Source: a phage. From it: a stretch of DNA of 64,000 nt. The notes under the pieces were generated by a model that was not told the DNA's origin, did not search any database, and saw only the letters and a list, made by a program, of their open reading frames with translations. Position numbers and translations under genes: made by a program. The stretch is taken from the sequence record MZ956761.1; one strand, 5' to 3'. The stretch's first letter is position 1, and every line of letters begins with the position of its first letter. Of this stretch, positions 42,089 to 43,110 are shown piece after piece.

Positions 42089-42161
42089 TGGGAATTAGCC
42101 AAGTTGGTAAGGCATAGCACTTTGACTGCTAGATGCAAAGGTTCGAGTCCTTTATTCCCAG
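42089..42161 (+). tRNA. tRNA-Gln (anticodon TTG)
   Basis: Hand-folded cloverleaf: acceptor TGGGAAT/ATTCCCA, T-loop TTCGAGT, anticodon loop CTTTGAC. Confidence 0.7.
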
Positions 42162-42162
42162 C

Positions 42163-42249
42163 GCGAGAATGGTCAAATTGGTAAAGGCACAGCACTTAAA
42201 ATGCTGCGGAATGATTTCCTTGTGGGTTCGAGTCCCACTTCTCGCACCA
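42163..42249 (+). tRNA. tRNA-Leu (anticodon TAA)
   Basis: Acceptor GCGAGAA/TTCTCGC, long variable arm, encoded CCA. Confidence 0.75.
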
Positions 42250-42254
42250 AATTT

Positions 42255-42328
42255 GCGGATATCGTATAATGGTATTACCTCAGACTTCCAATCTGATGAT
42301 GTGAGTTCGATTCTCATTATCCGCTCCA
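42255..42328 (+). tRNA. tRNA-Gly (anticodon TCC)
   Basis: Acceptor GCGGATA/TATCCGC, anticodon loop CTTCCAA, encoded CCA. Confidence 0.75.
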
Positions 42329-42338
42329 ATTTAATCTA

Positions 42339-42412
42339 CTCCGTGTAGCTCAGTTTGGTAGAGCGCCTGATTTGGGATCAGGAGGTCCAAGGTTCAAATC
42401 CTTGTATGGAGA
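42339..42412 (+). tRNA. tRNA-Pro (anticodon TGG)
   Basis: D-arm TAGCTCAGTTTGGTAGAGC, anticodon loop TTTGGGA, T-loop TTCAAAT. Confidence 0.7.
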
Positions 42413-42414
42413 CT

Positions 42415-42504
42415 GGAGGCGTGGCAGAGTGGTTTAATGCACCGGTCTTGAAAACCGGCAGTCGCTCCGGCGACTCATAGGTTCAAATCCTATCGCCTCC
42501 GCCA
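42415..42504 (+). tRNA. tRNA-Ser (anticodon TGA)
   Basis: Acceptor GGAGGCG/CGCCTCC, long variable arm, anticodon loop CTTGAAA, CCA. Confidence 0.75.
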
Positions 42505-42509
42505 GTTTT

Positions 42510-42585
42510 GCTGATTTAGCTCAGTAGGTAGAGCAACTCACTTGTAATGAGAAGGTCGGCGGTTCGATTCCGTCAATCAGCACCA
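42510..42585 (+). tRNA. tRNA-Thr (anticodon TGT)
   Basis: Acceptor GCTGATT/AATCAGC, anticodon loop CTTGTAA, CCA. Confidence 0.75.
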
Positions 42586-42586
42586 A

Positions 42587-42661
42587 GGCCCTGTAGCTGG
42601 AAGGTTCAAGCAAGCGACTCATAATCGCCAGATGGTGGTTCAATTCCACCCAGGGCCACCA
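42587..42661 (+). tRNA. tRNA with CAT anticodon (Ile2-type or Met)
   Basis: Acceptor GGCCCTG/CAGGGCC, anticodon loop CTCATAA, CCA. Confidence 0.65.
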
Positions 42662-42674
42662 AATTAAGAATTAA

Positions 42675-42761
42675 GGGGAGTTATCCCGTAGAGGTAGCGG
42701 TGTGGACTGTAAATCCATTGTCATTGCGACTCGGGTGGTTCGACTCCATCACTCCCCACCA
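42675..42761 (+). tRNA. tRNA-Tyr (anticodon GTA), type II
   Basis: Perfect 7-bp acceptor GGGGAGT/ACTCCCC, anticodon loop CTGTAAA, long variable arm, T-loop TTCGACT, CCA. Confidence 0.6.
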
Positions 42762-42765
42762 ATTT

Positions 42766-42840
42766 GGATGTGTAGCTCAATGGCAGAGCGATCGCCTGTT
42801 AAGCGATTGGTTATAGGTTCGAATCCTATCACGTCCGCCA
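42766..42840 (+). tRNA. tRNA-Asn (anticodon GTT)
   Basis: Acceptor GGATGTG/CACGTCC, anticodon loop CTGTTAA, T-loop TTCGAAT, CCA. Confidence 0.65.
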
Positions 42841-42954
42841 AATTTGTGACAACTGTCACATTAATATCTACTTGACGCGATTATAGGGGTTGAACTGATC
42901 ACTCTTCTCTTAATTTCGTGTGAAGACATCTTGATTGTTGGAGTAGGTATTAAT

Positions 42955-43030
42955 GTGGCCGTAGTTCAGTTGGTAGAACTCGAGATTGTGATTCTCGTAG
43001 TCATGGGTTCGACTCCCATCGGTCACCCCA
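42955..43030 (+). tRNA. tRNA-His (anticodon GTG)
   Basis: Acceptor GTGGCCG/CGGTCAC, anticodon loop TTGTGAT, T-loop TTCGACT, CCA. Confidence 0.6.
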
Positions 43031-43034
43031 ATTA

Positions 43035-43110
43035 CGGGGCATAGCTCAGAAGGAAGAGCAAGGACCTTCTAAGTCCTAGGTCGTAGGTTCGATCCCTACT
43101 GCCTCGACCA
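43035..43110 (+). tRNA. tRNA-Arg (anticodon TCT)
   Basis: D-arm TAGCTCAGAAGGAAGAGC, anticodon loop CTTCTAA, T-loop TTCGATC, CCA. Confidence 0.7.

What the first reader, a model, noticed from the sequence alone, without database searches (positions are those of the whole stretch)
42089..43110. Eleven tRNA genes, three more than the T4 set, with no homing endonuclease in the cluster
Hand folding gives Gln, Leu, Gly, Pro, Ser, Thr, a CAT-anticodon tRNA, Tyr(GTA), Asn(GTT), then after a 115-bp spacer His(GTG) and Arg(TCT). T4 as I recall has eight (no Tyr, Asn, His) and carries segB between two subclusters; here the spacer has no ORF but contains the palindrome TGTGACAACTGTCACA (about 42845-42860). 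The extra tRNAs read codons (UAC, AAC, CAC) whose host tRNAs are targets of anticodon nucleases in some systems, so they may be translational-fitness or defence-evasion additions.
Basis: partly seen in the sequence, partly recalled or inferred. Interest (0 to 1): 0.45.

Follow-up and report, generated by a model that had tools for sequence, protein, structure and literature searches.

The report
Phage tRNA cluster with His leader
This is the ordinary, already annotated 11-tRNA gene cluster of a T4-like coliphage (the version without the segB homing endonuclease), but its "empty" spacer is a conserved folded RNA that sits directly in front of a tRNA-His gene lacking the usual extra G.

Summary
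All eleven tRNA genes are real (ARAGORN and Rfam; Tyr only just passes). The window is 100% identical to Escherichia phage ADUt, a Tequatrovirus, where they are already annotated. Roughly 170-195 sequenced phages carry the same set. The "three more than T4" framing is wrong in detail. About 870 bp (42607-43476: CAT-tRNA, Tyr, Asn, spacer, His, Arg, a 116-aa ORF) replaces T4's Ile-segB-Arg, and the CAT and Arg tRNAs are also different genes from T4's. This is the segB-free T2-type allele described in 2008, with the preferred 27-bp SegB site intact inside tRNA-Asn, plus a 190-bp spacer+His insertion. Defence evasion has published support for tRNA-Tyr only (Septu; T2/T6, 2026). Codon demand fits Tyr and Asn, not His. 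The headline is therefore already known.

New here: 95 nt of the spacer (42860-42954) is a structured RNA that travels with tRNA-His across several Tevenvirinae genera. Its 14-bp closing helix ends at position -1 of tRNA-His. These His genes have T, not G, at -1. T5-like phages show the same arrangement (RNAIII-tRNA-His), specific to His. Its function is inferred, not shown. The palindrome is a junction product.

The parts
42089..42162 (+). tRNA-Gln (UUG)
   Evidence: ARAGORN; Rfam 66 bits; 73/73 identical to T4
42163..42249 (+). tRNA-Leu (UAA)
   Evidence: 87/87 identical to T4
42255..42328 (+). tRNA-Gly (UCC)
   Evidence: 74/74 identical to T4
42339..42413 (+). tRNA-Pro (UGG)
   Evidence: 74/74 identical to T4
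42415..42504 (+). tRNA-Ser (UGA)
   Evidence: 87/87 identical to T4
42510..42585 (+). tRNA-Thr (UGU)
   Evidence: 73/76 identical to T4
42587..42661 (+). CAT-anticodon tRNA, most likely tRNA-Ile2 (AUA reader after lysidine modification), called Met by software
   Evidence: 75/75 identical to T2, 64% to T4 Ile. 15-nt anticodon stem-loop and acceptor pairs 1-5 identical to E. coli ileX; 58 identities to ileX against 52 to metT. The 74/75-identical Vequintavirus copy is annotated tRNA-Ile, codon ATA.
42675..42761 (+). tRNA-Tyr (GUA), class II, variable loop 2 nt longer than E. coli tyrT
   Evidence: Rfam 30.2 bits against 29. 86/87 identical to T2 and 85/87 to T6. The T6 gene is expressed and rescues T6 from Septu (PMC13096335).
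42766..42840 (+). tRNA-Asn (GUU)
   Evidence: (74.1 bits); 75/75 identical to T2
42816..42842 (+). Intact preferred 27-bp recognition site of the SegB homing endonuclease (GGTTCGAATCC...CCAAA) in the 3' end of tRNA-Asn
   Evidence: Sequence match to the site described in PMC2330249: core GGTTCRANTCC, 3' CCAR, and G6, A16, G18, A26, A27. The position numbering assumes the site starts at GGTTC. Cleavage was not tested here.
42607..43476 (+). Cassette that is not homologous to T4 (replaces T4 Ile 3' part-segB-Arg); T2-type allele
   Evidence: BLAST against T4: 98% identity ends at 42606 and resumes at 43477. 251 phage records cover at least 80% of it.
42844..43033 (+). 190-bp spacer+His module, an insertion relative to T2 between two tRNA 3' ends (...CCAAAT | ... 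CCAATT |)
   Evidence: Junction comparison with T2 AP018813. The module occurs at 99% identity or more in 169 records and at 83-92% in Cronobacter (Karamvirus), Enterobacter, Klebsiella (including Jiaodavirus) and Proteus (Gelderlandvirus) phages (taxonomy).
42845..42860 (.). Palindrome TGTGACA-AC-TGTCACA at the left junction of the His module
   Evidence: Only the right arm (TGTCACA) is present in Karamvirus and Gelderlandvirus; the left arm exists only at the Tequatrovirus junction. Phage sutha has the perfect 16-mer.
42860..42954 (+). 95-nt structured RNA element (leader of tRNA-His): 14-bp closing helix A42860:U42954 ... U42873:G42941, plus two internal hairpins
   Evidence: Whole spacer folds to -32.7 kcal/mol, z = -4.36, 0 of 200 shuffles as stable. 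Consensus fold with compensatory pairs. Stem: 104/104 cells paired, 5/13 pairs changed on both sides, 0/500 shuffles reach the covariation score. Covariance model: 109 bits here, and it finds unseen copies at E = 1.7e-6 and 3.3e-5. No Rfam family.
42955..43030 (+). tRNA-His (GUG) with C73 but no encoded G-1 (T at 42954)
   Evidence: (65.1 bits). Alignment with E. coli hisR, which starts with G-1. T at -1 in every phage copy examined.
43035..43110 (+). tRNA-Arg (UCU), T2-type isoacceptor gene
   Evidence: 74/76 identical to T2 and about 64% to the T4/T6 Arg
43127..43477 (+). 116-aa ORF of unknown function belonging to the T2-type cassette
   Evidence: 111/116 aa identical to T2 EcT2_00138. No Pfam match; phrog_3355, unknown function.
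43477..43593 (+). rnaD homologue (T4 stable 'species 2' RNA)
   Evidence: 94% identical to T4 rnaD
43600..43738 (+). rnaC homologue (T4 stable 'species 1' RNA)
   Evidence: 98.6% identical to T4 rnaC

Best explanation
The region is the tRNA transcription unit of a Tequatrovirus (phage ADUt) in its segB-free, T2-type form. The first six genes (Gln to Thr) are the T4 genes. From about 20 nt into the seventh gene onward, the genome carries the alternative cassette known from T2/T2L: tRNA-Ile2(CAU), Tyr, Asn, a different Arg(UCU) and a 116-aa ORF. The cassette keeps the preferred SegB target intact inside tRNA-Asn. In a mixed infection with a segB-carrying relative this cassette would therefore be cut and overwritten, and T4's eight-tRNA set is best read as the outcome of such homing. 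Into this cassette a 190-bp module has been inserted between Asn and Arg. The module is a structured 95-nt leader RNA plus tRNA-His, and the same pairing is found in other Tevenvirinae genera.

Function: the tRNAs top up the host pool during infection. For Tyr the published benefit is replenishment when Septu or retron-Eco7 PtuAB destroys tRNA-Tyr. For Tyr and Asn there is also about 1.5-fold higher codon demand. tRNA-His has neither rationale and lacks the encoded G-1. Its leader helix pairs U-1, and the flank pairs +1 to +5. [quoted passage not shown]

Shown here: gene identities, cassette boundaries, the SegB site sequence, conservation and covariation of the leader, and its restriction to tRNA-His. 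Shown by others: SegB homing into T2L, and tRNA-Tyr against Septu. Inferred: susceptibility of ADUt to SegB, the role of Asn and His, and the processing role of the leader.
For: Identity and annotation.

T4 layout and breakpoints.

T2 and T6 layouts and per-gene identities, the SegB site and the insertion junctions.

Frequencies of the alleles.

SegB biology: PMC2330249. In T4 x T2L crosses segB was inherited in 99.6% of progeny and the T2L cassette was excluded.

tRNA-Tyr against Septu: PMC13096335. T2 is resistant, T4 sensitive, T6 intermediate. Overexpressed T6 tRNA-Tyr rescues. Host and phage tRNA-Tyr are both cleaved, so the effect is dosage.

Codon demand: (Tyr 1.57x, Asn 1.46x, His 0.66x relative to approximate E. 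coli values).

Leader:
- Fold and covariation.
- Covariance model finds copies it was not built from.
- Same geometry in T5 and Epseptimavirus with unrelated interiors.
- Specific to His: 0 of 9 other long spacers in T4-like clusters, and only His among 25 T5 tRNAs has a long helix ending at -1.
- 19-bp helix anchored at -1: 98.9% of cells paired, 13/19 pairs changed on both sides, 0/500 shuffles on all five measures.

Missing G-1. Role of G-1: PMC9976931.
Against: Nothing here shows expression or processing in ADUt itself.

SegB cleavage of this exact DNA is inferred from sequence identity to T2 AP018813, which may differ from the T2L strain used in 2008.

The direction of evolution (T4 derived, this form ancestral) is inferred from homing logic, not from a phylogeny.

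The E. coli codon frequencies are approximate values from memory.

For the leader:
- The covariation samples are small (8-10 variants) and related.
- The pooled T4-like/T5-like alignment is positional rather than homologous, so many double changes are inherited group differences.
- In KLB31 the hairpin stops 2 nt short of -1.
- The T5 boundary at U-1 comes from a GenBank annotation, and I could not trace it to an experiment.
- A helix that ends flush at a cleavage site is also what a nuclease-resistant by-product RNA would need, so no link to G-1 is required.
Confidence: 0.8

Rival explanations
1. The three extra tRNAs are simply translational supply. The AT-rich phage uses Tyr and Asn codons more than the host, and the extra genes raise decoding capacity late in infection. 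No defence role is needed.
For: Window ORFs use Tyr 44.8 and Asn 57.3 per 1000 codons, against about 28.6 and 39.4 in E. coli. The eight T4-type tRNAs read codons enriched 1.5- to 5-fold. The anticodon loops are identical to the host's.
Against: His is used less than in the host (14.8 against about 22.6 per 1000), so His is unexplained. T2, T4 and T6 differ in Septu sensitivity according to whether they carry tRNA-Tyr, and tRNA-Tyr overexpression rescues T6 (PMC13096335). T4 does well on laboratory hosts without these three tRNAs.
Confidence: 0.3
2. Tyr, Asn and His were acquired together as a counter-measure to nucleases that attack the UQU-anticodon tRNAs (Tyr, His, Asn, Asp), such as colicin E5-type anticodon nucleases. 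The phage copies replace the cleaved pool.
For: Colicin E5 cleaves exactly tRNA-Tyr, His, Asn and Asp (PMC1635277), and the three extras are three of these four. Related genera carry all four, including Asp. Phage tRNAs rescue infection from several tRNA nucleases.
Against: The three genes did not arrive together. T2 has Tyr and Asn without His, T6 has Tyr only, and His came with its own leader from another cluster type. The anticodon loops are identical to the host's, so the phage copies would be cut too. I found no phage-defence system reported to target tRNA-Asn or tRNA-His.
Confidence: 0.12
3. The structured spacer has nothing to do with tRNA-His identity. It is one more stable small RNA released from the tRNA precursor, like T4 species 1 and 2 or T5 RNA I and III. 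Its blunt closing helix exists only to protect the ends made by RNase P and 3' processing, or to serve as an RNase III site.
For: T5 RNAIII is annotated as a stable RNA in the same position. Other long spacers in T4-like clusters are also strongly structured, and one is an rnaC homologue. A continuous helix of about 19-20 bp is in the size range I recall for RNase III substrates (own knowledge). A role for RNase III in T4 tRNA synthesis has been reported (McClain 1979, seen only as a cited title).
Against: It does not explain why the arrangement is tied to tRNA-His in two unrelated phage families, while other tRNAs lack a helix ending at -1. It does not explain why three unrelated flank sequences all pair with His +1/+2 to +5. 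In KLB31 and phiAS5 the interior is lost and only the helix next to His remains.
Confidence: 0.35
4. The palindrome or spacer is a DNA-level control site: a CRP-binding site (TGTGA-N6-TCACA), a promoter for the His-Arg subcluster, or a terminator.
For: The 16-mer matches both half-sites of the CRP consensus as I recall it (own knowledge). It is the only such match in 64 kb.
Against: No promoter-like or terminator-like site lies on the + strand of the spacer. The left arm of the palindrome is absent outside Tequatrovirus, and only the right arm belongs to the conserved module. Several stem pairs are G.U on the + strand, which would be A.C mismatches on the other strand, so the selection acts on RNA.
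Confidence: 0.04

Closest known systems
tRNA gene region of phage T2 / T2L (Brok-Volchanskaya et al. 2008, PMC2330249; T2 AP018813)
   Same: No segB. Same CAT tRNA (75/75), Tyr (86/87), Asn (75/75) and Arg (74/76), and the same downstream ORF (111/116 aa). Same preferred SegB site in tRNA-Asn.
   Different: T2 lacks Thr, having an ORF there instead, and lacks the 190-bp leader+His module. The window has both, giving 11 tRNAs against 9.
tRNA gene region of phage T4 (NC_000866)
   Same: Same position between trna.2 and rnaD/rnaC. Gln, Leu, Gly, Pro and Ser are identical and Thr is 73/76. rnaD and rnaC are 94% and 98.6% identical.
   Different: T4 has segB and its own Ile and Arg genes. It has no Tyr, Asn, His, leader element or ORF116.
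Phage T6 tRNA-rich region: tRNA-Tyr-segB unit that counters Septu (Chihara et al. 2026, PMC13096335)
   Same: tRNA-Tyr is 85/87 identical and sits in the same cluster.
   Different: T6 carries segB next to Tyr and can amplify the pair in tandem. The window has no segB, so that escape route is unavailable. T6 lacks Pro, Ser, Asn and His.
Phage T5 RNAIII-tRNA-His (NC_005859 annotation: 'stable RNA with unknown functions')
   Same: A structured RNA of about 100 nt abuts tRNA-His. A 15-bp closing helix has U-1 in its last pair. The flank pairs with His +1 to +5. The His gene has T at -1 and C73.
   Different: No detectable sequence homology: the covariance model of the T4-like element does not find RNAIII. 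T5 belongs to a different phage family, and its upstream neighbour is RNA I rather than a tRNA.
T4 stable RNAs species 1 and 2 (rnaC, rnaD)
   Same: Non-tRNA structured RNAs embedded in the tRNA transcription unit, function unknown. Both are present in the window too.
   Different: They lie downstream of Arg, are unrelated in sequence, and are not coupled to the 5' end of a tRNA.
E. coli tRNA-His (hisR)
   Same: GUG anticodon, identical anticodon loop, C73, acceptor pairs G1-C72, U2-A71 and G3-C70.
   Different: hisR encodes G-1. The phage gene has T at -1, paired into the leader helix.

Membership tests
T-even phage tRNA gene cluster | Tandem, co-oriented tRNA genes with cloverleaf structure that pass a tRNA covariance model | tested here: met
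   11 of 11 by ARAGORN and Rfam RF00005; Tyr is marginal (30.2 bits against 29)
T-even phage tRNA gene cluster | Position between trna.4-trna.2/ipI and rnaD-rnaC/e.8, with genes shared with T4 | tested here: met
   98% identity to T4 on the left and 96% on the right; five tRNAs identical
segB-free (T2L-type) allele, recipient for SegB homing | Absence of segB | tested here: met
   tblastn with T4 SegB gives no hit better than E = 2 in 64 kb. Cassette ORFs have no nuclease domain.
segB-free (T2L-type) allele, recipient for SegB homing | Carries the CAT tRNA, Tyr, Asn, isoacceptor Arg and the downstream ORF of T2 | tested here: met
   75/75, 86/87, 75/75, 74/76 nt and 111/116 aa identical
segB-free (T2L-type) allele, recipient for SegB homing | Preferred 27-bp SegB recognition sequence in tRNA-Asn | tested here: met
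   42816-42842 matches the core, the CCAR end and the five discriminating bases listed in PMC2330249
segB-free (T2L-type) allele, recipient for SegB homing | Actual cleavage by SegB and exclusion in crosses | not testable with these tools
   Shown for T2L only (PMC2330249)
Counter-defence phage tRNA (tRNA-Tyr against Septu / retron-Eco7 PtuAB) | Phage tRNA-Tyr(GUA) equivalent to the one shown to rescue infection | tested here: met
   85/87 identical to the T6 gene and 86/87 to the gene of Septu-resistant T2
Counter-defence phage tRNA (tRNA-Tyr against Septu / retron-Eco7 PtuAB) | Protects this phage from the defence system | not testable with these tools
   Needs plating of ADUt and a Tyr deletion mutant on Septu-positive hosts
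Counter-defence phage tRNA with escape mutations in the anticodon loop | Anticodon loop differs from the host tRNA | tested here: not met
   The Tyr, Asn and His loops (CUGUAAA, CUGUUAA, UUGUGAU) are identical to tyrT, asnT and hisR
tRNA-Ile2 (lysidine, AUA) rather than tRNA-Met | Anticodon stem-loop and acceptor pairs 4-69 and 5-68 like ileX; no initiator features | tested here: met
   15 nt GCGACTCATAATCGC identical to ileX; C4-G69 and C5-G68 present; G1-C72 paired. That TilS uses these elements is from my own knowledge. Lysidine itself is not testable here.
Canonical bacterial tRNA-His | G-1 encoded in the gene opposite C73 | tested here: not met
   T at 42954 while C73 is present. The same holds in all T4-like and T5-like copies examined. 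G-1 as the major identity element: PMC9976931.
Stable structured RNAs of phage tRNA clusters (T4 species 1 and 2, T5 RNA I and III) | Non-tRNA element inside the tRNA transcription unit with a conserved secondary structure | tested here: met
   z = -4.36; covariation; conserved across five Tevenvirinae genera
Stable structured RNAs of phage tRNA clusters (T4 species 1 and 2, T5 RNA I and III) | Sequence or profile homology to T5 RNAIII | tested here: not met
   Covariance model R1 finds no match in the T5 locus at E up to 10. The global alignment is unconvincing.
Stable structured RNAs of phage tRNA clusters (T4 species 1 and 2, T5 RNA I and III) | Accumulates as a discrete stable RNA in infected cells | not testable with these tools
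   Needs a northern blot or small-RNA sequencing
CRP-binding site | TGTGA-N6-TCACA next to a promoter, conserved among relatives | tested here: not met
   The consensus is matched, but no promoter-like site lies on the + strand and the left half-site is absent outside Tequatrovirus

The most novel reading that the evidence does not exclude
Phage tRNA-His genes of at least two unrelated families (Tevenvirinae and T5-like Demerecviridae) have given up the gene-encoded G-1. They rely instead on a leader RNA whose long helix pairs U-1 and, through its flank, positions +1 to +5. The flank followed by the first A of the helix acts as a surrogate 3' acceptor strand with a pairing partner for position -1. 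[quoted passage not shown] That would be a third route to tRNA-His identity, beside RNase P retention of an encoded G-1 and Thg1 addition.
Probability: 0.3. Interest if true: 0.65.

Novelty: new member of a known kind. Interest (0 to 1): 0.36.

Why it matters
The headline adds nothing new. An eleven-tRNA, segB-free Tequatrovirus cluster is annotated in GenBank for this phage and for many relatives. The allele and its SegB target were described in 2008, and the defence role of T-even tRNA-Tyr in 2026. The comparison does make one point clear: T4's eight tRNAs are the minority, homing-derived state.

What could matter is the tRNA-His module. G-1 is the nearly universal mark of tRNA-His, yet these phage genes lack it. 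They are always preceded by a conserved helix ending at -1, and codon demand gives no reason to carry the gene. If the helix sets the 5' end, it would be a new solution to the tRNA-His identity problem and a natural test case for how RNase P selects its cleavage site. It would also give a function to T5 RNAIII, which T5's GenBank record still lists as a stable RNA of unknown function. If it does not, the element is still an unannotated, conserved small RNA in phages that are being isolated and characterised for use against bacterial pathogens.

Tried and rejected
- Promoter and terminator scan of 41000-44600: nothing on the + strand of the spacer. The count of promoter-like sites is no higher than in shuffles.
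- Rfam at permissive E-values over 42600-43900: no family for the spacer, nor for rnaC or rnaD.
- Hammerhead-like reading of CUGAUCA...GAA in the spacer: rejected by eye, because the motif is not conserved in ABTNLPp2 or KPV15 and Rfam ribozyme models do not match.
- Homology of the element to T5 RNAIII: the covariance model finds nothing in T5, so I call it an analogue only.
- CRP site: the consensus is matched, but it is not conserved and has no promoter nearby.
- Homing endonuclease hidden in the cassette ORFs or in the 171-aa ORF of relatives: no Pfam domains; PHROGs of unknown function.
- IMG/VR and metagenome scans for more His-leader variants gave only 8 loci each, most of them duplicates.
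- Evidence for defence systems that target tRNA-Asn or tRNA-His: none found in the PARIS, retron-Eco7 or Schlafen papers.
- Literature on a phage tRNA-His without G-1, or on T5 RNAIII: nothing in the searchable library. Older subscription papers on T5 RNAs are not covered, so prior description cannot be excluded.
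Full report
**1. Observation**

ARAGORN finds eleven tRNA genes on the + strand between 42089 and 43110, and none elsewhere in the 64 kb. Rfam's tRNA model passes all eleven at the curated threshold. Asn (74.1 bits) and His (65.1 bits) are strong, while Tyr only just passes (30.2 against 29). The cloverleaves are normal. Tyr is a class II tRNA with a long variable arm and a weak D stem.

The spacer between Asn and His is 114 nt (42841-42954). It contains no ORF of its own. 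The palindrome TGTGACA-AC-TGTCACA sits at 42845-42860.

**2. What genome this is, and how common the arrangement is**

The region is 100% identical to Escherichia phage ADUt (OQ466432, Tequatrovirus). All eleven tRNAs are already annotated there. Counts among phage records:
- 1076 records match the region, and 266 cover at least 80% of it.
- The spacer+His module alone is at least 99% identical in 169 records.
- Papers on new Tequatroviruses routinely report "11 tRNAs", for example fPS-65, one of my close hits.

**3. Comparison with T4, T2 and T6**

The difference, however, is not three added genes.

Identity to T4 is 98% up to window 42606, about 20 nt into the CAT-anticodon tRNA. It resumes at 43477 with rnaD and rnaC. 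Gln, Leu, Gly, Pro and Ser are identical to T4, and Thr is 73/76. The CAT tRNA and the Arg(TCT) tRNA are only about 64% identical to T4's Ile and Arg, which is no better than unrelated tRNAs. About 870 bp here therefore replaces about 845 bp in T4.

T2 (AP018813) carries the same alternative genes: CAT 75/75, Tyr 86/87, Asn 75/75, Arg 74/76, and the downstream 116-aa ORF 111/116 aa. T2 lacks Thr and His. T6 has Tyr (85/87), then segB, then the T4-type Arg.

The T2-type cassette is covered at 80% or more in 251 phage records, against 126 for T4's segB cassette. Intermediates exist, such as segB plus Tyr in PST and BP32, and cassettes without His in PE37 and phiC600P9.

**4. Link to the SegB homing endonuclease**

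Brok-Volchanskaya et al. 2008 (PMC2330249) showed the following:
- T2L, RB1 and RB3 lack segB and carry tRNA-Met(CAT), Tyr, Asn and an isoacceptor Arg.
- The preferred SegB site is a 27-bp sequence in the 3' end of tRNA-Asn. It has the core GGTTCRANTCC and the end CCAR, and the bases G6, A16, G18, A26 and A27 make it the preferred site.
- In T4 x T2L crosses segB is inherited by 99.6% of progeny, while the T2L cassette is excluded.

The window has that site intact at 42816-42842 (GGTTCGAATCCTATCACGTCCGCCAAA). All the listed bases match when positions are counted from GGTTC. No SegB-like sequence exists in the window. "No homing endonuclease in the cluster" therefore means that this genome carries the unoccupied recipient allele. 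T4's eight-tRNA set is best read as the product of homing. That last step is inference.

**5. Identity of the CAT tRNA**

It shares a 15-nt anticodon stem-loop and acceptor pairs 1-5 with E. coli ileX (tRNA-Ile2), giving 58 identities against 52 with metT. A 74/75-identical copy in a Vequintavirus is annotated as tRNA-Ile reading ATA. AUA is about 2.8-fold enriched in the window's ORFs relative to my approximate E. coli value. Software that names it Met is almost certainly wrong.

**6. Why Tyr, Asn and His?**

*Codon demand.* In 67 long ORFs of the window (53.5 kb), usage per 1000 codons is Tyr 44.8, Asn 57.3 and His 14.8. My approximate E. coli values (from memory) are 28.6, 39.4 and 22.6. 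That gives 1.57x, 1.46x and 0.66x.

*Defence.* Chihara et al. 2026 (PMC13096335) show that Septu EcB88 cleaves tRNA-Tyr in the variable loop. T2 is resistant, T4 (which has no tRNA-Tyr) is sensitive, and T6 is intermediate. Overexpressed T6 tRNA-Tyr rescues infection. Host and phage tRNA-Tyr are both cut, so the effect is one of dosage. Azam et al. 2024 (PMC11555353) show the same logic for T5 tRNA-Tyr and retron-Eco7.

The three extras are three of the four UQU-anticodon tRNAs cleaved by colicin E5 (PMC1635277). Even so, I found no defence system reported to target tRNA-Asn or tRNA-His. The anticodon loops of all three are identical to the host's. And the three genes clearly arrived separately.

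The defence idea is therefore supported for Tyr, open for Asn, and unsupported for His. His also has no codon-demand rationale.

**7. The spacer is a structured RNA tied to tRNA-His**

*An insertion relative to T2.* Window 42844-43033 is a single insertion between two tRNA 3' ends (...CCAAAT | ... CCAATT |).

*It travels with His.* From about its 14th base onward, the spacer is conserved together with His at 83-92% identity. This holds in Cronobacter (Karamvirus), Enterobacter, Klebsiella (including Jiaodavirus) and Proteus (Gelderlandvirus) phages. There the order is CAT-tRNA, Gln, spacer, His. In Moonvirus (Merlin) the same order holds, but only the last few bases of the spacer and the His gene match at the sequence level.

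*Fold.* As RNA the spacer folds to -32.7 kcal/mol (z = -4.36; 0 of 200 shuffles as stable). The consensus structure has a 14-bp closing helix, AUUAAUAUCUACUU with GGAGUAGGUAUUAAU. Its last pair is A42860:U42954, and U42954 is position -1 of tRNA-His. Two hairpins lie inside it.

*Conservation.* Nine variants all keep the helix, including three whose interiors are largely different (Merlin, L017, L019). On eight distinct arm pairs:
- 104 of 104 cells are standard pairs.
- Five of 13 pairs change on both sides.
- No shuffle out of 500 reaches the covariation score.
- Slid registers pair in only 34-58% of cells.

Several pairs are G.U on this strand, so the selection acts on RNA of the tRNA sense strand.

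*Covariance model.* A model built from six copies scores 109 bits at 42860-42954. It finds no other copy in the window. It detects copies it was not built from, at E = 1.7e-6 and 3.3e-5. Rfam has no matching family.

**8. The His gene lacks G-1, and T5 shows the same design**

E. coli hisR begins with the encoded G-1. The phage gene begins at G+1, preceded by T, while C73 is kept. This holds in every T4-like copy examined. G-1 with C73 is the major bacterial histidine identity element. It is normally gene-encoded, and it mainly serves to position the 5'-phosphate (PMC9976931).

In T5 (NC_005859) the annotated "RNAIII, stable RNA with unknown functions" lies immediately 5' of tRNA-His, and the tRNA is drawn as 78 nt starting with T(-1). 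Including three upstream bases and U-1, RNAIII closes with a 15-bp helix that again ends at U-1. In Epseptimavirus (Eps7, falkor) the element has a different interior and length (about 67 and 125 nt). The helix is nevertheless kept through many compensatory changes and still ends at U-1. The covariance model does not detect RNAIII, so I treat T5 as an analogue and do not claim homology.

**9. Specificity controls**

- Among nine other long inter-tRNA spacers in three T4-like clusters, none has base -1 paired in the predicted fold, whereas all three His leaders do.
- Among the 25 tRNAs of T5, only His has a long (15-bp) helix ending at -1. The others show none, or a 4-7 bp helix in a single fold window.
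- The bases just 5' of the helix can pair with His +1/+2 to +5 in all 12 variants. This happens through three unrelated flank types: GUCAC; the G-CCA-A end of tRNA-Gln; and the G-CCA-C end of T5 RNA I.
- Anchored at -1, the resulting 19-bp helix is paired in 98.9% of 190 cells across ten variants. Thirteen of 19 pairs change on both sides, no shuffle out of 500 reaches any of the five measures, and slid registers pair in 36-50% of cells.

Caveats:
- The samples are small and related.
- The pooled alignment is positional, so many of the double changes are differences between the two groups.
- In KLB31 the hairpin stops 2 nt before -1.
- When leader and tRNA are folded together, the minimum-energy structure extends the helix into the acceptor 5' strand. 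This is a prediction that ignores tRNA tertiary structure.

**10. The palindrome**

Only its right arm (TGTCACA) is part of the conserved module, and it is present in Karamvirus and Gelderlandvirus. The left arm occurs only at the Tequatrovirus junction with Asn. Phage sutha has the perfect 16-mer TGTGACAATTGTCACA. The palindrome is statistically unusual, at about 0.06 expected per spacer, and it matches TGTGA-N6-TCACA. No promoter lies beside it, and it is not conserved beyond the genus. I read it as a junction product, an inverted duplication of the module's first bases. It may incidentally form a 6-bp RNA hairpin.

**11. Mechanism, with confidence**

*High confidence (about 0.8).* This is the segB-free T2-type tRNA cluster plus an imported leader+His module. 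The tRNAs supplement host pools, and Tyr has a published counter-defence value.

[quoted passage not shown] This would compensate for the missing G-1:C73 pair.

*About equally likely (about 0.35).* The leader is only a nuclease-resistant by-product RNA or an RNase III site.

None of these processing roles was tested here.

**12. Novelty**

The finding as stated is already known, through GenBank annotation and the 2008 and 2026 papers. I could not find the His-specific leader helix, or the missing G-1, described anywhere in the searchable literature. Older subscription papers on T5 RNAs are not covered by that search.

Noticed in passing
window 43533-43682 and 43688-43849 (against rnaD 43477-43593 and rnaC 43600-43738): Two 'hypothetical protein' CDS in the ADUt GenBank record lie on top of the homologues of T4's stable RNAs rnaD (94% identical) and rnaC (98.6%). 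They are probably spurious gene calls.
   Followed up: partly
window 43789-43812 and 44344-44367, flanking ORF 43863-44336: A 157-aa ORF (phrog_2280, unknown function, no Pfam match) is an insertion relative to T4. It is bracketed by an exact 24-bp duplicated terminator-like hairpin, AGCCCCGACCGAAAGGTTGGGGCT, which looks like a cassette inserted at a terminator.
   Followed up: partly
L040 (Vequintavirus JohannBauhin) 601-687 and 1172-1246, against window 42675-42761 and 42587-42661: tRNA-Tyr (84/87) and the CAT tRNA (74/75) are nearly identical between this Tequatrovirus and an unrelated Vequintavirus. Arg, Thr and Pro of the same two clusters are not (50-64 identities). Single tRNA genes are exchanged between phage families.
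   Followed up: partly
L002 1595-2110 (phage R5505); also T2, L004 6739-7254: Some close relatives and T2 carry an extra 171-aa ORF (phrog_2290, unknown function, no nuclease domain) between trna.2 and tRNA-Gln. The window lacks it.
   Followed up: partly
L008 1053-1203 (Karamvirus Pet-CM3-4, between tRNA-Trp and tRNA-Gly): By eye, this 151-nt 'spacer' resembles T4 rnaC (species 1 RNA). ARAGORN miscalls part of it as a 96-nt tRNA-Phe. Stable RNAs appear to be shuffled within tRNA clusters across genera.
   Followed up: no
L011 1201-1403 (Tequatrovirus sutha): Sutha keeps the leader element (100.5 bits with the model) but has a different tRNA-Arg directly after it instead of His+Arg. The last two helix pairs are broken there. 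It is a natural variant in which the leader is uncoupled from tRNA-His.
   Followed up: partly
window 39949-41046: Just upstream of the tRNA cluster lie genes annotated as the anti-CBASS protein Acb1 (T4 57B) and internal head proteins. The cluster therefore sits in a neighbourhood that may be rich in counter-defence functions.
   Followed up: no
window 42855-42859 against 42955-42959: The conserved flank GUCAC just 5' of the leader helix can pair with GUGGC (+1 to +5) of tRNA-His. In the window the left arm of the palindrome competes for the same GUCAC. The predicted folds differ according to whether the tRNA is included.
   Followed up: partly
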